Part shown: positions 2,755 through 33,175 of the stretch, piece by piece
Position numbering within the stretch: position 1 is the stretch's first letter
How the letters are laid out: every line of letters begins with the position of its first letter
Virus record (IMG/VR): IMGVR_UViG_3300012204_000011
Location: 1-53,112 of that record
Source of the DNA: a virus
Taxonomy: Duplodnaviria; Caudoviricetes
DNA length: 53,112 bases
Strand: one strand, 5' to 3'
Program-made: the position numbers and the translations under genes
The notes under the pieces: model-generated
The model's input: the letters and a program-made list of their open reading frames with translations, nothing else
Databases searched by the model: none
Told to the model about the DNA's origin: nothing

Positions 2755-2996
2755 CGGCTCGGACCGAGGGGGATGACCGCGGCGCTCGGCCGCGCGGGGT
2801 CGCGCAGCGCGCGGATCTCGGACGGCACGAACCGCAGGAGGCCCGCCTTGCGCGTGCTCGGGATCCGCTCGTCGGCGGCGGCTCGGTATACCCAGGTCCT
2901 TTTCACCTTCAGGTACCGGGCGACGTCCGCCGCGGTCCAGAGGTCGTCCTCTTCTTCGGGAGGAGCAGGCGGCGGAGGCTGCTTCGTGGAGGCCAT
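2751..2996 (-). CDS. Second excisionase-like HTH protein
   Basis: WTAADVARYLKVKRTWVYRAAADERIPSTRKAGLLRF (HTH_17-like). Confidence 0.8.
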   Translation of the reverse strand: MASTKQPPPPAPPEEEDDLWTAADVARYLKVKRTWVYRAAADERIPSTRKAGLLRFVPSEIRALRDPARPSAAVIPLGPSR

Positions 2997-2998
2997 GG

Positions 2999-4828
2999 TC
3001 AGTTCAGCTCCTCGCTGGCGCGAAGCTCGCCGCGGCCCTCGACGAGCTCGAGCGCGCGCAGCCTGCCGAGGTACGTAGAGAAGGTTCCCGAGGCGTGGGA
3101 GATCCGCGCCCTCTCCCCGAGCTGCTCGTTCGTCAGCCCCGCCGGGTAGACGTCGACGAGCGCCTGGAGCATCCGCGCAGCCCCGCCGCCGATCTCGCGG
3201 ATCCAGTAGTCGGCGAGGGCGCGGCCCTCCGGGAGCAGGTCGTAGGCGCCGAGCGCGACGATCCCCGCATCGGTGATCTTCAGGTGGCCGCGGCCATCGA
3301 TCCAGCCCTGCGACCGCGCGCGGCCGAGGTACGTGCTGAACGTCCCCGACCTCGAGGAGACGCCGGCCCGGACGCCGAGCTGCTGGTTCGTGAGGCCCTG
3401 CGGCCGCTGCGCGAGGGCGATGAGCATCCGGCGGAGGCCGCTGTTCCCGACCGAGACCTCGCCGCCCGGCTCGCCGGCGGCGGCGCGCGCCGTGGCGGGA
3501 GGCGCGATCGGGCGGCGCGCGGGCAGGATCGGCGCCGCGGGGCGCGGCACGGCGGGAGATGGGGTTGCGCGGGCCGCCGACTGGAACGACAGAACGCGAC
3601 CGGCAAGCGCCCCCATCTCCGTGACGAGCGCACCGTGGGCCGCCCCTAGCTTCTCGGCGGTTGCGCTGACCCGCTCGAAGAGCGCCTCGAGCCGCTTCAC
3701 CTGCGCGTCCTTCAGGACCGGCACCTCGACGCGCTTCTCCTTCGCCGGCTTCGACGGGCGCTGCTCGACGTCCTGCGCGAGGCGCTGGTACTCGGCGGCC
3801 TGCTTCTGCGCGCCGGAGAGGCTGCGCTCGAGCTCCGCGATCCGCCGGCGGAGGAGGGTGGGGTCGGCGGCCTTCACGCGCTCGACGGTGGCGGCCATCT
3901 GCCGGCGGAGCGCCTCCAGGTCGACGTCGGCCCGCTCCTTCGGCTCGACCCGCTTCTGCCCGGGCTCGGGCGTCGCGCCCGAGTCGAAGGTTTCGATCGG
4001 GTCGACGTGGACGCGCTGGAAGATCCCCTCGTCCGTCGGCCAGCCCGGAGACCACACCCAGGCGTCGCCGCGGGGTAGCGACGGGAGGGACTCCATCAGC
4101 GTCGCGCGCTGCTCGGGCGTGCCGTGGACCTCGATCCACGCGTCCATCGCGGCGAGATCCTGCGGCGCGATCGTCCGCATGGCGATCATCACCTGGGCCT
4201 GCGTCAGCACGTTCTTGTTCAGGACGGCCGAGCGCTGGGTGACGAGGGTGCAGCCGATCCCGCGCTGCCGGCCGCGGCGCACGATGTCCTCGATCGCGCC
4301 GAGCATCCGCTCTTCGCCGCGCTGGGGCTTCTGCGGGGCGACGGCGTCCGCCTCGTCGACGAAGAGCATCACCGGGGTCCGGTACTGCTCGCGCGCCTTG
4401 AGCCGGTAGAAGTTCTCGAGGAACGCCGTCATAAACGTCGCGACCTCGTGCTTCCGAAAGAGCGAGAGGTCGAGGACGACGCTCACGCGCTCCTCGACGA
4501 CGAGCTTCGCCACGAGCTCGCCGGAGCCGGGCTCGAGCGGGAGGTCCCCGTGCTCGCCGCCGAGGATGAGGCAGCCGATCCCGGGGCCCTTGCCATCCGC
4601 GGAGGATCGCACGCCCCAGTGGTCGCCCTTCGGGTCGACGTCGACGACCTGCATGCCGGCCTTGAACAGGCGCTCGAGGAGCAGGCGCAACGTGAACGTC
4701 TTCCCGGAGCCCTTCCGGGCCAAGATGGCGAGCGTCTGGGTGACGACGTCGAGCGGCAGCGCCAGCTCCTTCGCGATGCGGAGCATCTTCACGTTCTTCT
4801 CCTGGTGGACGACGGCGACCGATCGCAT
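2999..4828 (-). CDS. HerA/FtsK-like (DUF87) ATPase with C-terminal winged-helix repeats
   Basis: Walker A ARKGSGKT, Walker B LFVDEAD, RRGRQRGIG...TQR; two C-terminal GLTNxQLG..SGTFSTYLGR repeats; alternative start 4786. Confidence 0.85.
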   Translation of the reverse strand: MRSVAVVHQEKNVKMLRIAKELALPLDVVTQTLAILARKGSGKTFTLRLLLERLFKAGMQVVDVDPKGDHWGVRSSADGKGPGIGCLILGGEHGDLPLEPGSGELVAKLVVEERVSVVLDLSLFRKHEVATFMTAFLENFYRLKAREQYRTPVMLFVDEADAVAPQKPQRGEERMLGAIEDIVRRGRQRGIGCTLVTQRSAVLNKNVLTQAQVMIAMRTIAPQDLAAMDAWIEVHGTPEQRATLMESLPSLPRGDAWVWSPGWPTDEGIFQRVHVDPIETFDSGATPEPGQKRVEPKERADVDLEALRRQMAATVERVKAADPTLLRRRIAELERSLSGAQKQAAEYQRLAQDVEQRPSKPAKEKRVEVPVLKDAQVKRLEALFERVSATAEKLGAAHGALVTEMGALAGRVLSFQSAARATPSPAVPRPAAPILPARRPIAPPATARAAAGEPGGEVSVGNSGLRRMLIALAQRPQGLTNQQLGVRAGVSSRSGTFSTYLGRARSQGWIDGRGHLKITDAGIVALGAYDLLPEGRALADYWIREIGGGAARMLQALVDVYPAGLTNEQLGERARISHASGTFSTYLGRLRALELVEGRGELRASEELN

Positions 4829-29404: not shown

Positions 29405-29829
29405 GCCAGGCGCTCCTCGACTTCACGCCGCAGCAGCGGCATCCCCGGCGACCGGAGCGGGTGGACCTGCGCGTGAAGCTCGCGCTGCGGTTCCTCCTCT
29501 CGTCGCGGCACCGCGGCATGGAGAACGCCGCCACCTGGGAGGAGATGCTCGAGCAACTCAACGCCGATGGCCGAGCGGCCGGGGAGGGCGGCCTCTACGT
29601 CGCTCGCGTCCGGCGCCTTCAGGAGGCGGCCGAGGAACTTCTCGCGGAAGAGAACCCCATTGCCTCGCTCTCCTCGAGGGGCGTGTTCTGGGCGCTCCGT
29701 CCGGAGGAACTCGAGGCGTCGTTCTGGGAGCGGGACAAGCGCGCGCGGAAGTCGATGCTCGGGCGCGGCCGGGCGCGGCGCGTCTGGAAGCGGATGCTCG
29801 GCCAGATCGACCTCGGGGAGAACGCGTGA
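29401..29829 (+). CDS. Hypothetical wHTH-like protein
   Basis: HRGMENA...RVRRLQEAAEEL..PIASLSSRGVFW. Confidence 0.6.
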   Translation: MSQALLDFTPQQRHPRRPERVDLRVKLALRFLLSSRHRGMENAATWEEMLEQLNADGRAAGEGGLYVARVRRLQEAAEELLAEENPIASLSSRGVFWALRPEELEASFWERDKRARKSMLGRGRARRVWKRMLGQIDLGENA

Positions 29830-30017
29830 CGCGTCTCGAGCCGATGCTCATCCGCGTCCCGCCGGACCTCGCCGCGGCGCTCCGCGATCTCGCGCGCGAG
29901 ACGCGGATTCACCAGGCCGACCTCCAGCGCGAGGCCATCGCGGACCTGCTCCGGAAGCACGGCCGCCACCCCGAGTTGGTCGACGTCGCCGAGGGCGACA
30001 CGAGAGGTGCAGCTTGA
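29826..30017 (+). CDS. Ribbon-helix-helix DNA-binding protein
   Basis: MLIRVPPDLAAALRDLARETRIHQADLQREAIADLLRKH. Confidence 0.8.
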   Translation: MTRLEPMLIRVPPDLAAALRDLARETRIHQADLQREAIADLLRKHGRHPELVDVAEGDTRGAA

Positions 30018-30340
30018 ACCACGCGGTCGGCGAGGCGAGCTACTCGGCGGGCTGGGGGTACGCGCACGAGCGCCTGCGCGCGCAGGACGAGGAGACCGGC
30101 CGGCGGCTCGACGACGCCATTGCGCGCGAGAACCGGGCCGTCGTCCAGGGACAGGTGGGGCTGCGCCGGCCCTCGGCGGACATCGCCGAGATCCTCAAGA
30201 TGCGCGCGCGGGGCGAGTCCCTCGCCGCGATCGGCCACCGGTTCGGCATCACCCGGGAGGCGGTCCGCCAGGTCGTCCTCCGGCACGGGACGGCGATCCA
30301 CCACGGCGTCGATCGCCGTCGGAAGCGGAGGCAGAACTGA
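30014..30340 (+). CDS. Sigma70 region-4-like HTH protein
   Basis: EILKMRARGESLAAIGHRFGITREAVRQVV. Confidence 0.7.
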   Translation: MNHAVGEASYSAGWGYAHERLRAQDEETGRRLDDAIARENRAVVQGQVGLRRPSADIAEILKMRARGESLAAIGHRFGITREAVRQVVLRHGTAIHHGVDRRRKRRQN

Positions 30341-30591
30341 TGGTCCTCGGCGAAGCAGCCTCCGTCGCATGCGACTTCGCGCGCGTGCACGTCGGCGCGG
30401 CGGAGATCGCGATGCGCGAGGCCCGGAGGGCACGCACGCCGATCGCGCAGGCGAAGGCGTGGGAGCGGGTCGCGCTGCAGCTCCGGAAGGCGGGGCGCGA
30501 GCTGGCGAAGGGCGAGCTCGCCGCGATCGAGCGCGCGCGCACGGCGGTGCTTGAGGGCGTCGCGCCGGCGAAGGCGAGGGCGCGCGGGTGA
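30340..30591 (+). CDS. Hypothetical protein
   Basis: Coupled at both ends. Confidence 0.55.
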   Translation: MVLGEAASVACDFARVHVGAAEIAMREARRARTPIAQAKAWERVALQLRKAGRELAKGELAAIERARTAVLEGVAPAKARARG

Positions 30592-31175
30592 GCTGGCGCA
30601 TCCTCCAAGGCGACTGCCGCGAGGTCCTCCGGACGCTGCCGGCGGAGTCGGTGCTACGCGGCGAGGCCGACGCGGTTCAGTTCGTGTGCGCGGGCACAAA
30701 GCCGCTCCATCTCGGCCGAGAGTTCGGCGGAGCGCGGTGCGCTTCCAGCGTGGCCGCGGCCGGGCGCGACGCGGGCCTTCTTGCTGCGCTCCTTCGCTTC
30801 CCGGAGCGCGAGGCAGTTCTCGGCCTGGGCGCGCTTGATCCGCAGGTAGGGGAGGAGCGCACGGAGGCACGCTGCGGCGCGCATGTCGGTGACCTCCCAG
30901 CCGAGCAGCGGGCGCCCGCGCTTGGCGTGCGGGTCGGCGACGAAGCGGTACCCGCCGAACAGCTGATGAAGGAGATCGACGGCCTGTGGCTCGACCTGCT
31001 TCACGCAGACACGCTCGCTGAATGTCGGCTGGGAGCAATCCCCGACGCGGCGCTGTTTGTACGTGCTTCGCTTCACGCCAATCGTCCCGTCCGAGTCGAT
31101 GACGCCGGCGCAGTACGCGCGTTCTTCGGGGCTCATGGTCATGCAGCAGTCTACGTGGAGGGTCCGACACGATGA
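30588..31175 (+). pseudogene. Displaced original 5' end of DNA methyltransferase (22 codons) continued by open frame antisense to homing endonuclease
   Basis: MSWRILQGDCREVLRTLPAESV matches MTase N-terminus at 31172; frame stays open to TGA overlapping new ATG. Confidence 0.8.
30654..31142 (-). CDS. Single-motif LAGLIDADG homing endonuclease
   Basis: AYCAGVIDSDGTI, VKQ, LHQLFGG, LRALLPYLRIKRAQAE. Confidence 0.9.
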   Translation of the reverse strand: MTMSPEERAYCAGVIDSDGTIGVKRSTYKQRRVGDCSQPTFSERVCVKQVEPQAVDLLHQLFGGYRFVADPHAKRGRPLLGWEVTDMRAAACLRALLPYLRIKRAQAENCLALREAKERSKKARVAPGRGHAGSAPRSAELSAEMERLCARAHELNRVGLAA

Positions 31176-32471
31176 CGTGGCGGATTCTCCAGGGAGATTG
31201 CCGGGAAGTATTGCGCACACTTCCAGCGGATAGCGTTCAGTGTTGCGTTACCAGCCCCCCATATTGGGGTTTGCGCGACTACGGGGTCGAGGGCCAGTTC
31301 GGGCTCGAGCGGACGCCGGAGGAGTACGTCGCGAAGATGGTCGAGGTGTTCCGGGAGGTCCGGCGCGTGCTCCGGCCGGACGGGACGCTCTGGCTGAACC
31401 TCGGGGACTCGTACTGCTCGGCGCCGGCAGGGAACGCGCCAGGGACGCAGGGCGCGAAGTCCGGGCTCACCAACCCGTGGCGGATGGAGGAGATCCGCGG
31501 GCGGCACAAGGAGGCGCGCTCGAGGGGCGAGAACCGTCCGGAGACGAACGGCGCGGCAGGGACCCTGGTGCAGCCGAACCGGACCACGATCCCTGGGCTG
31601 AAGCCGAAGGACCTCGTCGGCATCCCGTGGCGCGTCGCGCTCGCGCTCCAGGCGGACGGCTGGTGGCTCCGGCAGGAGATCATCTGGCACAAGCCGAATC
31701 CGATGCCGGAGGCGGTGACGGACCGTCCGACGCGGTCGCACGAGCAGGTGTTCCTGCTCTCCCGGTCGGCGTCCTACTTCTACGACCGCCACGCGATCAT
31801 GGAGCCGGTGACCGGCGGCGCGCACCCGCGCGGCGGTGGCGTGAACCCGAAGGCGCTCGAGTCCGGCTCGGAGGGGCGCGAGGGCCGCGTCGGCGCACCG
31901 CGGTCGAAGCAGAACGCGAGCTTCTCCGCCGCTGTGACCGGTCTGGTCGCGCAGCGGAACCGCCGGTCCGTCTGGAGCATCACCACGAAGCCGTACCCGG
32001 GCGCGCACTTCGCGACGTTCCCGGTGGACCTCGTTGAGCCGTGCATCCTCGCCGGGTCGAGCGAGCGCGGCGCCTGCGCGTCGTGCGGCGCTCCGCTCGA
32101 GCGCGTCGTGGAGACGCCGGACTTCTCCGAGCAGCCGAAGCGAGCGGAGAGCAGGCTCGAAGGGAAGATGATCGCGAAGGGCGCGGGCTACGCCACGAGC
32201 GCGGGGCAGGCGTGGCAGGACTGGCGCGCCGCGAACCCGGACCGGACCGTCGACTGGCGCCCGACCTGTAGCTGCGAACCGGGGGGGGGCAAGCGTCATG
32301 CCATGTAGCGTGCTCGACCCGTTCGCCGGCGCTTGCACGACCGGGCTCGTCGCGCGCCGTCTCGGGCGATCGTTCGTCGGCTGCGAGCTCTCGCCAGCGT
32401 ACGTGGAGATGGGCCGCCGCCGGATCATCGACGACGCACCGCTCCTGAACGCGCCGGGGAGGATCGCGTGA
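31172..32471 (+). CDS. N4-C/N6-A DNA methyltransferase (beta class), frameshifted at G9 tract
   Basis: TSPPYW, DGTLWLNLGD, IIWHKPN, HFATFP; motif I VLDPFAG lies in another frame after G9 at 32281-32289. Confidence 0.9.
32281..32289 (+). repeat. Poly-G (G9) tract at MTase frameshift
   Basis: G8 or G11 would restore the frame to ...PGGASVMPCSVLDPFAG. Confidence 0.85.
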
Positions 32472-33175
32472 CCGAGTCGCTCCTGCAGGTGCAAGACGGA
32501 AACGAATCGACGGCCGCCGAGAGGCGCGCCCTGGACCTCTACGCGACCCGGCCCGAGGTGGCACAGGCGATCTGCGAGCGGCTCCAGGCCGAGGTTCGCG
32601 TTCCCGACGTCATCGTCGAGCCGAGCGCCGGCCCGGGCCGGTTCGTTGCCGCGGCGCTCGCGGTATGGCCGGGCGCGCACGTCATCGCGGTGGACGTCGA
32701 CGGCGCGCACCGGGCCACCTGCCTCGCGGCGGGCGCGGCGGAGTTCCACGAGTGCGACTGGCCGACTTGGGTGGAGCGCAACCGCCGCGCCGGCGTGAAC
32801 TGCGGCCACGGGCGGCTCCTCATCCTCGGCAACCCGCCCTTCAGTCACGCGGTGCAGCACATCACCGCGGCGCTGGAGCTGCTCCTCCCTGGCGAGCATC
32901 TCGTCTTCCTCCTGCGCCAGTCGATCCGCGCGGCGAAGGAGCGCATCGGCTTCTGGGCGCGGTCGCCGCTCGAGGAGGCCGCGCTCGTCCTCCCGCGCCC
33001 CAGCTTCATCGGCGGGAACGACTCGGGCGAGTACGAGGTCCTTCGCTGGACGAAGGGCCACCAGGGGCGCGCCACGATCGCGCCCCCGATCCTGTGGGGC
33101 TCGGCGAAGGCGGAGGCCGAGGTGGCGCGAGACCAGCTCGGGCTGTTCGCCGCGCCAGCGGGGAGGGTCGGGTGA
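32468..33175 (+). CDS. Small N6-adenine DNA methyltransferase (gamma-like order)
   Basis: DLYAT, IVEPSAGPGRF (motif I), LILGNPPF (motif IV), RPSF. Confidence 0.82.
   Translation: MTESLLQVQDGNESTAAERRALDLYATRPEVAQAICERLQAEVRVPDVIVEPSAGPGRFVAAALAVWPGAHVIAVDVDGAHRATCLAAGAAEFHECDWPTWVERNRRAGVNCGHGRLLILGNPPFSHAVQHITAALELLLPGEHLVFLLRQSIRAAKERIGFWARSPLEEAALVLPRPSFIGGNDSGEYEVLRWTKGHQGRATIAPPILWGSAKAEAEVARDQLGLFAAPAGRVG

What the first reader, a model, noticed from the sequence alone, without database searches (positions are those of the whole stretch)
30588..31273. Antisense LAGLIDADG homing endonuclease that carries a synonymously recoded replacement 5' end for the methyltransferase it invades
Seen: the MTase N-terminus occurs twice. 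Copy 1 (30588-30653, MSWRILQGDCREVLRTLPAESV) is coupled to the upstream gene, uses host-like codons (1 of 22 A/T-ending) and stops matching exactly where the stop codon of a minus-strand LAGLIDADG gene begins (30654). Copy 2 (31172 on) matches 20/22 residues but shares only 4 codons. 15 of its first 34 codons end in A/T, and this recoded tract runs through the catalytic SPPY motif before codon usage reverts. Established: homing endonucleases target conserved catalytic-motif DNA and normally spare the gene via an intron or intein. Gene-end-duplicating endonucleases are known from fungal mitochondria. Inference: this is a splicing-free homing element that repairs its host gene with a cleavage-resistant 5' end and hides on the opposite strand. 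TAGACT 5 nt before ATG 31142 suggests its own leaderless promoter.
Basis: partly seen in the sequence, partly recalled or inferred. Interest (0 to 1): 0.85.

Follow-up and report, generated by a model that had tools for sequence, protein, structure and literature searches.

The report
Homing endonuclease cassette replacing a methylase start
A selfish DNA-cutting gene sits backwards inside the start of a phage DNA-methylase gene, brings a differently spelled replacement start for that gene, and keeps its own opposite strand readable so the methylase can still be made.

Summary
A 22-codon methyltransferase (MTase) start (30588-30653) abuts the stop of a minus-strand 162-aa gene (30654-31142). 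A second, full MTase start follows at 31172, with 4 of 22 codons shared and 15 of the first 34 codons A/T-ending.

The minus-strand protein is an I-CreI/I-MsoI-type single-motif LAGLIDADG endonuclease that Pfam misses. It belongs to a family of at least 257 protein clusters.

In 57 sources scanned, the same layout recurs: old 5' end, endonuclease on either strand, new 5' end, rest of the MTase. One relative does the same in a Ro60/TROVE gene. One cassette is about 100% identical in three different flanking backgrounds, which points to recent mobility.

- **Open antisense frame.** Antisense-type endonuclease genes avoid TTA/CTA/TCA (1 of 545 Leu+Ser codons against 43 of 310 in sense-type genes). 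This keeps a "bridge" reading frame open from the old MTase start to the new one. In the window this is 30588-31175, ending in an ATGA overlap.
- **Mini-insertions in relatives.** 27 of 35 distinct relatives carry a 1-9 nt insertion at the motif IV DNA. 23 of these have an in-frame stop.

No intron signal was found. Cleavage, resistance and an empty allele for this phage remain untested.

The parts
30340..30591 (+). Upstream 83-codon ORF. Its TGA overlaps the GTG of copy 1 (GTGA). It has no family match.
   Evidence: Pfam 0 families in the correct frame
30588..30653 (+). Copy 1: the resident MTase 5' end (22 codons, 1 of them A/T-ending). It now serves as the start of the bridge ORF.
   Evidence: N-terminus profile E = 6e-9
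30588..31175 (+). Bridge ORF (195 codons). It comprises copy 1 plus the codon-aligned antisense frame of the endonuclease gene. Its TGA overlaps the ATG of copy 2 (ATGA).
   Evidence: listed; frame and stop position; family-wide avoidance of TTA/CTA/TCA; no Pfam match
30654..31142 (-). Single-motif LAGLIDADG homing endonuclease gene (162 aa; motif YCAGVIDSDGTIG).
   Evidence: PDB I-MsoI E = 7.7e-9 / 1.6e-3; PHROG 5046 E = 3.5e-16; model pLDDT 88.8, Foldseek I-MsoI/I-CreI TM 0.71; homodimer model 0.76 against best control 0.01; Pfam 0 families
31143..31171 (.). 29-nt divergent control spacer. On the minus strand, TAGACT (31148-31153) lies 5 nt before the endonuclease ATG. On the plus strand, GGAGGG (31157-31162) lies 9 nt before the MTase ATG.
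   Evidence: TAnnnT ending 4-9 nt before the ATG in 10 of 24 antisense relatives, p = 7e-12; the generic sigma-70 scan found nothing
31172..31273 (+). Copy 2: the cassette-borne replacement 5' end (34 codons, 15 of them A/T-ending). It runs through TSPPYWGL.
31253..31276 (+). Motif IV DNA (S-P-P-Y-W-G-L), the inferred family target and cut site. Here it has no insertion and is spelled AGC CCC CCA TAT TGG GGT TTG.
   Evidence: the position of copy-1 breakpoints and of the mini-insertions in relatives; cleavage not tested
31172..32308 (+). MTase ORF, first 378 codons (PF01555 N6_N4_Mtase).
   Evidence: E = 2.4e-28
32281..32289 (+). A run of nine G that breaks the MTase frame. Variant contigs in two runs have one G fewer, which restores the frame.
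   Evidence: table 4: 1 base left out at 32281 in X4 and X7
32298..32471 (+). MTase C-terminal piece (VLDPFAG motif), in the +1 frame relative to the main ORF.
   Evidence: PF01555, E = 1.1e-9, profile positions 185-218

Best explanation
The window holds a mobile, splicing-free homing-endonuclease cassette of about 620 nt (30654 to about 31273). It sits in the 5' part of a phage N4/N6 DNA-methyltransferase gene.

The cassette has three parts:
- an I-CreI-like LAGLIDADG endonuclease gene on the opposite strand;
- a 29-nt divergent control spacer;
- a replacement MTase 5' end with its own Shine-Dalgarno sequence and ATG.

The replacement end stops at the DNA for catalytic motif IV (TSPPYWG). That DNA is the family's inferred cut site.

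Inferred homing route: the enzyme cuts that DNA in cassette-free alleles. The break is repaired from the cassette-bearing allele, so endonuclease and replacement 5' end are copied together. The recipient's own 5' end is left upstream as copy 1.

Inferred self-protection: the cassette's own copy of the site must escape cutting. Most relatives carry a 1-9 nt insertion there. The window instead has only synonymous respelling.

Copy 1 is not dead weight. It keeps the original start, which is translationally coupled to the upstream gene. From it a 195-codon bridge frame runs antisense through the endonuclease gene. That frame stops on the new ATG (ATGA), so ribosomes are delivered to the new MTase start and the inserted stretch stays translated. 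Avoidance of polarity is the inferred benefit.

The endonuclease is probably transcribed from its own TAnnnT element as a leaderless or near-leaderless mRNA.

Shown here: the anatomy, the fold, the family-wide architecture, mobility of one relative's cassette, and the open antisense frame. Inferred: the cut site, the resistance, the coupling and the promoter.
For: **The enzyme**
- PDB I-MsoI E = 7.7e-9.
- AlphaFold model pLDDT 88.8. The top 40+ Foldseek hits are I-MsoI/I-CreI, TM 0.71.
- 33 invariant columns in 28 sequences, including D16, D18 and G19 of the motif and K103.
- Homodimer model 0.76 against a best control of 0.01. That mark was reached by 20 of 30 solved homodimers and 1 of 23 monomers. 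Runs agree in at least 75% of contacts and pLDDT is at least 83. The pass may reflect likeness to solved I-CreI dimers.

**The architecture**
- Of 57 sources scanned (the window plus L084-L139), 45 show endonuclease, new N-terminus and the rest of the MTase. These give 35 distinct cassettes, 23 antisense and 12 sense.
- In the antisense loci where copy 1 was printed, it ends at SP|, SPP| or SPPY| or further upstream. In most of them it directly abuts the complement of the endonuclease stop.
- 5 of 28 aligned family proteins are fused in frame to an MTase N-terminus ending at or within the TSPP motif.
- L093 shows the same 5' duplication in a Ro60/TROVE-vWA gene.

**Mobility**
- L105, L106, L107 and L108 share a block that is about 100% identical. 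It runs from about 11 nt before the copy-1 ATG to 5 nt past the motif IV insertion.
- Their upstream flanks are 30-90% identical. Sequence diverges directly after the block.

**Composition (fraction of A/T-ending codons)**
- Copy 2 0.362 (361/998) is close to the endonuclease gene 0.334 (2229/6677). Both exceed the downstream MTase 0.218 (298/1366) and copy 1 0.244 (125/513).
- Copy 2 exceeds the downstream part in 30 of 35 cassettes, p = 2.6e-6.
- Between the two copies within a locus, pS is 0.45-0.97 and pN is 0.13-0.48. So both copies were under protein constraint for most of their divergence.

**The bridge frame**
- TTA/CTA/TCA make up 1 of 545 Leu+Ser codons in 21 antisense-type genes, against 43 of 310 in 13 sense-type genes. 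Fisher p = 4.7e-19, at equal third-position A content (0.16 and 0.18).
- Stops per gene in the three antisense frames are 0.05, 5.1 and 7.5 for antisense-type genes, and 3.3, 5.4 and 7.0 for sense-type genes.
- The frame's stop overlaps the copy-2 start, or lies within 1 nt of it, in the window, L086, L097, L098, L119, L120, L121, L126 and L133.
- In sense-type loci the endonuclease stop overlaps the copy-2 start (ATGA or GTGA) in L083, L101, L109, L111 and L118.

**Promoter**
- TAnnnT ends 4-9 nt before the ATG in 10 of 24 antisense loci, against 1.8% expected.
- A full TTGACA / 17-18 nt / TAnnnT arrangement is present in L098 and L100. L136 and L137 have TTGACT in the -35 position.

**No intron**
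- Rfam gives 0 matches at E<=1 over 29800-32800.
Against: - No cassette-free allele contiguous with this phage's copy 1 was found. The upstream ORF has no relatives in IMG/VR, and the laid contigs did not bridge an empty site.
- Cleavage and resistance are untested. Mismatch counts against a family consensus do not single out the window's site: it has 8 mismatches, and 13 of 73 cassette-free alleles have 8 or more.
- The window's endonuclease gene is GC-rich (A/T-ending fraction 0.15) while copy 2 is 0.45. So the simple reading 'copy 2 has the composition of the cassette' does not hold here.
- Identity between endonucleases and identity between their copy 2 segments correlate only weakly (rho 0.10, 473 pairs). 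The window's copy 2 is 90% identical in protein to its own copy 1, but only 48% to the copy 2 of its nearest endonuclease relative. So long-term co-inheritance of copy 2 with the endonuclease is not shown.
- The MTase frame is broken at the run of nine G, so the gene may be inactive in this record.
- The generic promoter scan found nothing.
- With 24 Leu+Ser codons and third-position A content of 0.08, the absence of TTA/CTA/TCA in the window's own gene is not significant by itself. The argument is family-level.
Confidence: 0.75

Rival explanations
1. Static recombination scar. An illegitimate join between two phages with diverged MTase genes left a partial 5' duplicate and a passenger endonuclease gene. 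The element in this window no longer homes, or never did.
For: No empty allele was found for this phage. The MTase frame is broken at the run of nine G. Copy-1 breakpoints differ between loci (SP|, SPP|, SPPY|, or further upstream), so the left junctions arose by end-joining rather than by clean homology.
Against: The same three-part layout recurs in 35 distinct cassettes and in a second host gene. One cassette is identical in three backgrounds. The endonuclease keeps all family-invariant residues, and its ORF is intact. The open antisense frame implies ongoing selection on the arrangement.
Confidence: 0.12
2. The A/T-ending codons of copy 2 serve translation initiation, by weakening mRNA structure at a newly independent start. 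They do not serve cleavage resistance or avoidance of recombination with copy 1.
For: Copy 2 needs to start on its own, with GGAGGG 9 nt upstream. Family-wide, copy 2 has about the same composition as the endonuclease gene, so no special recoding is needed in most loci.
Against: The tract runs 33-34 codons, through motif IV, and ends within 3 codons of the place where relatives carry their insertions and where the identical block of L105-L108 ends. From recall, initiation effects usually cover only the first 10-15 codons. In all 8 cassettes without an insertion, copy 2 has more A/T-ending codons than its endonuclease gene.
Confidence: 0.2
3. The insert is a group I intron or an intein that is removed after transcription or translation.
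For: LAGLIDADG genes are usually housed in introns or inteins. The insert sits in conserved catalytic-motif DNA.
Against: Rfam gives 0 matches at E<=1 on both strands. The endonuclease is on the opposite strand and is a separate ORF. A complete second 5' end with its own Shine-Dalgarno sequence and ATG makes splicing unnecessary.
Confidence: 0.02

Closest known systems
Mobile endonuclease ORFs of fungal mitochondria that duplicate a gene's 3' end (Glomus and Allomyces atp6, atp9, cox2, nad3 'gene hybrids'; PMC3630166, passages read)
   Same: A LAGLIDADG ORF travels with a foreign copy of the host gene's terminus. The native terminus is left behind as a remnant. The duplicates have low DNA identity (63.5% in atp6). 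No intron is involved.
   Different: Here it is the 5' end, not the 3' end, so the cassette must supply a new start. The setting is phage or bacterial, not organellar. Both orientations occur. The antisense form keeps a bridge frame open.
MobA / gene 60 cassette of T4-like phages (bioRxiv 10.1101/2022.08.31.505936, abstract and section 12 read; Bonocora et al. 2011 recalled, not seen)
   Same: A free-standing endonuclease is inserted in an ORF. A second small insert at the target disrupts the recognition site and protects against self-cleavage. Endonuclease and insert move as one cassette. Degenerate 'hit and run' forms exist.
   Different: MobA is an HNH-type enzyme that splits the topoisomerase gene into two working pieces, and its insert is 50 nt. 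Here the enzyme is LAGLIDADG and the gene end is duplicated rather than split. Relatives' inserts are 1-9 nt, and the window has none.
I-CreI / I-MsoI homodimeric LAGLIDADG endonucleases
   Same: Single motif, about 160 aa, same fold (TM 0.71). The predicted dimer forms through the motif helix.
   Different: Those enzymes are intron-encoded in algal chloroplast rRNA genes. Sequence identity is only 17-21%, and Pfam LAGLIDADG models do not detect this family.
Insertions in actinophage DNA methylases: intein, 'lone LAGLIDADG' and the ShiLan out-of-frame HNH element (PMC11855218, passages read)
   Same: Phage N6_N4 methylases are recurrent targets of homing elements inserted at conserved residues, without detectable splicing domains.
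   Different: Those are in-frame internal insertions that are read through. No 5' duplication, bridge frame or stop-containing mini-insert is described in the passages I read.

Membership tests
LAGLIDADG homing endonuclease, single-motif homodimeric type | LAGLIDADG motif with a conserved acidic residue at the end of helix 1 | tested here: met
   The motif is YCAGVIDSDGTIG. D16, D18 and G19 are invariant in 28 sequences, and the motif aligns to the I-MsoI motif.
LAGLIDADG homing endonuclease, single-motif homodimeric type | alpha-beta-beta-alpha-beta-beta-alpha core fold | tested here: met
   Model pLDDT 88.8 with H-E-E-H-E-E-H order. Foldseek I-MsoI/I-CreI E about 2e-8, TM 0.71.
LAGLIDADG homing endonuclease, single-motif homodimeric type | Homodimer through the motif helices | tested here: met
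   In silico only. Score 0.76 against best control 0.01. The mark was reached by 20 of 30 solved homodimers and 1 of 23 monomers. The interface is residues 5-18. Runs agree in at least 75% of contacts, pLDDT at least 83. The pass may come from likeness to solved dimers.
LAGLIDADG homing endonuclease, single-motif homodimeric type | Match to a curated LAGLIDADG family model | tested here: not met
   Pfam gives 0 families at E<=0.1. PHROG 5046 matches but is labelled 'HNH endonuclease'.
LAGLIDADG homing endonuclease, single-motif homodimeric type | Site-specific cut of a roughly 22-bp site leaving 4-nt 3' overhangs | not testable with these tools
   Only indirect evidence. Breakpoints and insertions cluster within CCG TAC TGG, and the commonest +4 insert equals a duplication of ACTG.
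Free-standing (intron-less) homing cassette | Endonuclease gene not inside an intron or intein | tested here: met
   Rfam 0 hits. Opposite strand, separate ORF.
Free-standing (intron-less) homing cassette | Same cassette in otherwise different genomes, with boundaries at the target | tested here: met
   Met for relatives L105-L108. For the window's own phage, no cassette-free or second background was found.
MobA/gene 60-type cassette (endonuclease plus protective insert) | Small insert at the target, beginning with an in-frame stop | tested here: not met
   The window's junction has no insert. Among relatives, 27 of 35 distinct cassettes have an insert, and 23 of those 27 have the stop.
MobA/gene 60-type cassette (endonuclease plus protective insert) | Ribosomal bypass of the insert | not testable with these tools
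   Only indirect evidence. Matched codons flank the stop (TGG..TGG, CCN..CCN), and the upstream part is under purifying selection.
Gene-end-duplicating mobile endonuclease ORF (mitochondrial type) | Foreign copy of the gene end next to the endonuclease, with a native remnant beyond it | tested here: met
   Met in mirror image, at the 5' end rather than the 3' end. Copy 1 and copy 2 flank the gene.
Group I intron or intein | Ribozyme core, or in-frame splicing domains | tested here: not met
   One search gives no match. The endonuclease ORF is antisense to the host gene.

The most novel reading that the evidence does not exclude
In the window's relatives, the 3-9 nt stop-containing duplications at motif IV DNA may not be knock-outs. 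They may be protective inserts that ribosomes skip or shift over: TAC TGG TAG TGG, CCN TAG CCN TAC, TAY TGA C TGG, TTT C GG. That would make them natural 'stop-hops', or shifty stops, with matched take-off and landing codons. A 2016 review says no natural occurrence is known (PMC5009743, passages read). Together with the antisense bridge frame, this family would then be a set of selfish cassettes that rebuild host-gene expression purely by translational tricks.
Probability: 0.35. Interest if true: 0.9.

Novelty: new variant of a known kind. Interest (0 to 1): 0.8.

Why it matters
- **A third way to spare the host gene.** Homing endonucleases are thought to survive inside genes by riding in introns or inteins. 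This family needs neither. It carries a spare gene start and keeps translation flowing across itself, either by in-frame fusion or by keeping its own antisense strand free of stops.
- **A rare kind of selection signal.** The antisense constraint (1 against 43 forbidden codons) is an unusually clean case of selection on the non-coding strand of a gene.
- **An unannotated family.** It is large (at least 257 clusters), is invisible to Pfam, and is labelled 'hypothetical'. Phage annotation therefore currently miscalls these loci as broken or duplicated methylases.
- **A testing ground for short-range recoding.** The relatives' stop-containing mini-inserts offer dozens of natural sequences for asking whether short ribosome hops exist in nature.
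- **Possible new meganuclease scaffolds.** The enzymes recognise a conserved GC-rich site.

Tried and rejected
**Steps that led nowhere or were corrected**
- translated the upstream ORF from 30341, which is the wrong frame. I repeated it from 30340 and got no family.
- Pfam on the endonuclease gave nothing.
- Search of IMG/VR with the upstream ORF: 23 pattern matches, none confirmed.
- Genome collection: one distant locus only (L096, 40% identity).
- Phage GenBank collection: only distant MTase matches at 60-80% identity, and no record covered 80% of the query.
- The generic promoter and terminator scan found none.
- The mismatch count of the site against a consensus of 73 cassette-free alleles was not discriminating.
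- Restricting dN/dS to pairs with endonuclease pS below 0.55 left 3 pairs, of which only one was informative. I then used clade pairs.
- The correlation between endonuclease identity and copy-2 identity is weak.
- Palindromy of the inferred site was judged by eye only: 5 of 11 positions around ACTG, not better than chance in GC-rich DNA. I make no claim from it.
- GTT at the Val codon is commoner in insert-free alleles (5 of 8 against 1 of 27). It lies outside a 22-bp site, so I did not use it.

**Sequencing runs**
- No RNA holder was listed.
- The laid contigs showed no joint that skips the cassette.
- One short contig (X3, 180 nt) matches copy 1 alone and ends 2 nt after it.
- One contig in X1, X3 and X7 leaves the window at 30676. 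It could not be followed.
- Parts of the stretch without cover in X7 say nothing.

**Rows dropped**
- Endonuclease genes under 130 codons were left out.
- The 'copy 1' of L134 is a separate DPPY methylase about 2 kb away, not a remnant. It should be discounted, leaving 14 loci. In 12 of these copy 2 has more A/T-ending codons than copy 1, and in 2 the counts are equal.
- L083 (= L002) was not in the profile scan. Its junction (+5, TGAAT) was read.

**Literature**
- Searches found no description of a 5'-end-duplicating endonuclease cassette, an antisense bridge frame, or these mini-inserts.
- Bonocora 2011 and Weiss 1987 are recalled, not read.
Full report
**What is in the window**

The window is a 53,112-bp virus record, 71% G+C and estimated about 70% complete.

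- **Upstream gene and copy 1.** At 30588 a GTG overlaps the TGA of an 83-codon upstream ORF. It opens 22 codons that read as the N-terminus of an N6_N4 DNA methyltransferase (MTase).
- **The minus-strand gene.** The very next triplet, CTA at 30654-30656, is the complement of the stop of a minus-strand ORF whose ATG is at 31142.
- **Copy 2.** 29 nt beyond that ATG, a second MTase start (ATG 31172, with GGAGGG 9 nt upstream) opens the real gene (PF01555, E = 2.4e-28).
- **How alike the two starts are.** They share 19-20 of 22 residues but only 4 codons and 44 of 66 bases. Copy 1 has 1 A/T-ending codon. Copy 2 has 15 in its first 34, the last being GGT just after TSPPYW. After that the gene returns to almost pure G/C endings.

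**What the minus-strand gene is**

- Pfam finds nothing.
- The protein matches I-MsoI in the PDB (E = 7.7e-9 for the tandem construct, 1.6e-3 for the monomer).
- It also matches a PHROG that is mislabelled HNH.
- With an alignment of 28 family members it folds at pLDDT 88.8 into the alpha-beta-beta-alpha-beta-beta-alpha core. Its best structural matches are I-MsoI and I-CreI (TM 0.71).
- A two-copy model pairs through the motif helix. The score is 0.76 against a best control of 0.01. That mark was reached by 20 of 30 solved homodimers and 1 of 23 monomers. Runs agree in at least 75% of contacts and pLDDT is at least 83. This pass may simply reflect likeness to solved dimers.
- The family is large and unnamed. 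There are 257 clusters at E<=1e-3 among 341 candidates. None of the 120 listed has a Pfam domain, and the only source names given for any of them are 'hypothetical protein' and one uninformative entry.

**The layout is a family trait**

I fetched 13 loci from IMG/VR, 1 from genomes and 43 from metagenomes. I then scanned the window plus L084-L139 (57 sources) with three profiles:
- the MTase N-terminus through SPPY;
- the MTase stretch after it;
- the endonuclease.

Results:
- 45 sources show endonuclease, new N-terminus and the rest of the MTase. These give 35 distinct cassettes, 23 with the endonuclease antisense to the MTase (as here) and 12 sense.
- An old N-terminal copy lies beyond the endonuclease in 14 loci that allow a within-locus comparison (a fifteenth row, L134, is a separate gene).
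- In the antisense loci where copy 1 was printed, it ends at SP|, SPP| or SPPY| or further upstream. In most of them it directly abuts the complement of the endonuclease stop, as in the window.
- In sense loci the endonuclease is often fused in frame to the first 9-30 MTase residues. Five of the 28 aligned family proteins carry such a head, ending at or within the TSPP motif.
- A 46%-identical relative sits between a 36-codon stub and a full copy of a Ro60/TROVE-vWA gene. So the habit belongs to the endonuclease lineage, not to the methylase.

**Mobility and boundaries**

- L105, L106, L107 and L108 share a block that is about 100% identical. It runs from about 11 nt before the copy-1 ATG, through the endonuclease and copy 2, to 5 nt past motif IV.
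- Their upstream flanks are only 30-90% identical, and the sequences part directly after the block.
- Fractions of A/T-ending codons tell the same story. Copy 2 (0.362) goes with the endonuclease gene (0.334). Copy 1 (0.244) goes with the downstream MTase (0.218). Copy 2 exceeds the downstream part in 30 of 35 cassettes (p = 2.6e-6).
- Within loci the two copies differ by near-saturated synonymous change (pS 0.45-0.97) but modest replacement change (pN 0.13-0.48).

The simplest reading is that copy 1 is what remains of the invaded allele and copy 2 came with the cassette. The window fits this, with two caveats:
- Its endonuclease gene is GC-rich (0.15) while copy 2 is not (0.45).
- Its copy 2 is closer in protein to its own copy 1 (90%) than to the copy 2 of the nearest endonuclease relative (48%).

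So extra selection for a differently spelled copy 2 is plausible here. It could act against cutting, or against recombination with copy 1. It is not shown.

**The target**

Copy-1 breakpoints and the right edge of the cassette converge on CCG TAC TGG, the DNA for the catalytic SPPYW.

- In 27 of 35 distinct cassettes, copy 2 carries a small insertion exactly there. Counts by size: +6 in 9, +4 in 7, +1 in 4, +5 in 3, +8 in 2, +9 in 1 and +3 in 1.
- 23 of the 27 have an in-frame stop as the first codon of the insert. In the TGG-duplicating class the stop is the second codon.
- Most inserts can be derived as tandem duplications at the site. ACTG doubled gives TAC TGA CTG G. TACTGG or CCNTAC doubled, plus one C-to-G change, gives the +6 forms.
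- Such insertions would push apart the two half-sites of a homodimeric enzyme. The known parallel is the 50-nt insert that protects T4 gene 60 from MobA (bioRxiv 10.1101/2022.08.31.505936, section 12).
- The window, its nearest relative L097/L099 (74% identical endonuclease, also antisense, with a 16-codon copy 1) and six others have no insertion. Seven of these eight instead have unusual codons or residue changes at the site.

Resistance by respelling is therefore a reasonable inference for the window, but it is untested.

Because copy 1 joins the endonuclease gene exactly at its stop, the MTase-strand frame is the codon-by-codon antisense of the endonuclease.

- In the window this frame stays open for 195 codons (30588-31175). 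Its TGA overlaps the new ATG as ATGA.
- This is not a GC artefact. The three codons whose complements are stops (TTA, CTA, TCA) make up 1 of 545 Leu+Ser codons in 21 antisense-type genes. They make up 43 of 310 in 13 sense-type genes, at equal third-position A content (Fisher p = 4.7e-19).
- The other two antisense frames carry 5.1 and 7.5 stops per gene, the same as in sense-type genes.
- The frame's stop overlaps or touches the copy-2 start in nine antisense loci.
- In sense loci the endonuclease's own stop does the same job in at least five.

In both forms an unbroken chain of translation therefore runs from the original, upstream-coupled MTase start to the new start. I infer that this preserves translational coupling and spares the operon from polarity across about 500 nt that would otherwise go untranslated.

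**Expression of the endonuclease**

- The generic sigma-70 scan is blank.
- A TAnnnT hexamer ends 4-9 nt before the endonuclease ATG in 10 of 24 antisense loci, against 1.8% expected (p = 7e-12).
- A full TTGACA / 17-18 nt / TAnnnT promoter is present in L098 and L100. L136 and L137 have TTGACT in the -35 position.
- The window's TAGACT at 5 nt fits a leaderless or near-leaderless transcript.

**Are the insert-bearing methylases dead?**

This concerns relatives, not the window, but it is the most novel lead.

- The downstream MTase frame is open for at least 279 codons in 12 of 15 insert alleles whose end is visible.
- The 30 codons upstream of the insert are under purifying selection. In four independent pairs that share the same insert there are 42.2 synonymous changes on 86.7 sites, against 38.8 replacement changes on 264.3 sites (p = 1.4e-7).
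- Over 12 clade pairs the pooled pN/pS is 0.37, similar to the endonuclease itself.
- The codons flanking the stop match: TGG..TGG; CCA..CCA or CCG..CCG, which co-vary; and TTT to TTC at the +1 forms.
- The stop changes identity (TGA, TAA, TAG) but stays a stop.
- This is the 'stop-hop' configuration. A major review says it works in synthetic constructs but has no known natural case (PMC5009743, passages).

Against this reading:
- A duplication origin produces matched codons for free.
- Homing constantly supplies fresh downstream sequence.
- 3 of 15 alleles are decayed.
- The +4 class has only a 2-of-3 codon match.

I put bypass or frameshift at about one in three.

**Other checks**

- Rfam finds nothing at E<=1 on either strand of 29800-32800.
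- An independent run holds an identical 1038-nt contig across both junctions.
- Variant contigs in two runs have eight G, not nine, at 32281-32289, which restores the MTase frame.
- No cassette-free allele of this phage was found.
- Orientation is clustered on the endonuclease tree but switched at least twice. The window's well-supported clade holds 6 antisense and 2 sense members.

**Verdict**

It is incomplete in mechanism, and its claim of cleavage resistance is unproven. The closest known systems are the mitochondrial 3'-end-duplicating endonuclease ORFs and the MobA/gene 60 cassette. This is a new variant of that kind, with one feature I could not find described in six literature searches: the selected antisense bridge frame.

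Noticed in passing
window 32281-32289: A run of nine G splits the MTase into 31172-32308 and a +1-frame tail, 32298-32471. Variant contigs in runs X4 and X7 have one G fewer, which gives one continuous ORF. This could be an assembly error or a slippage-prone switch.
   Followed up: partly
L084-L139, copy 2 at motif IV (for example L105 2387-2392, L084 about 2848-2851): 27 of 35 distinct relatives carry a 1-9 nt insertion at SPP|Y|W. 23 of them have an in-frame stop, and matched codons often flank the stop. The sequence upstream of the insert is under purifying selection.
   Followed up: yes
L093 2841-5258: A 46%-identical endonuclease sits between a 36-codon stub and a full copy of a Ro60/TROVE-vWA gene. 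This is the same 5'-duplication design in an unrelated host gene.
   Followed up: partly
L002/L083, MTase ORF 4548-6179 of L002: This MTase also carries an in-frame internal LAGLIDADG-like insertion (motif LAAIIDGEGCF) between conserved blocks. It resembles the 'lone LAGLIDADG' reported in actinophage methylases (PMC11855218).
   Followed up: no
L095 and L139, about 2990-3100: The endonuclease is reduced to a 46-codon remnant that joins its N- and C-terminal ends. Copy 2 and its +5 stop-containing insert are retained. This looks like a decaying cassette.
   Followed up: no
L110 against L115: Copy 2 is nearly identical between the two (pS 0.09) while the endonuclease genes are far apart (pS 0.75). 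The parts of the cassette can therefore be exchanged.
   Followed up: no
L084 (2740-4743 in MTase orientation) and L127 (1880-4489): In these two +4 alleles the bridge frame runs on, through copy 2 out of frame, into the MTase body. This gives ORFs of 667 and 869 codons. It may be chance.
   Followed up: no
window 30676, runs X1, X3, X7: A contig follows the window up to 30676, which is 23 nt into the 3' end of the endonuclease gene. It then continues with sequence that resembles the stretch just before the copy-2 ATG. It may be a relative that has lost most of the endonuclease gene.
   Followed up: no
window 29826-30017 and 29567-30340: Upstream neighbours are a ribbon-helix-helix protein (PF12651, E = 4.6e-13) and an ORF ending in a weak sigma-70 region 4 / HTH match (E = 8e-4, below the family cut-off). 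The stop of the second ORF shares one base with the ATG at 30340.
   Followed up: no
window 32333-33175: This ORF, directly after the MTase, contains an LGNPPF stretch. From recall, that resembles motif IV of adenine methylases. It has no Pfam match at E<=0.01.
   Followed up: partly
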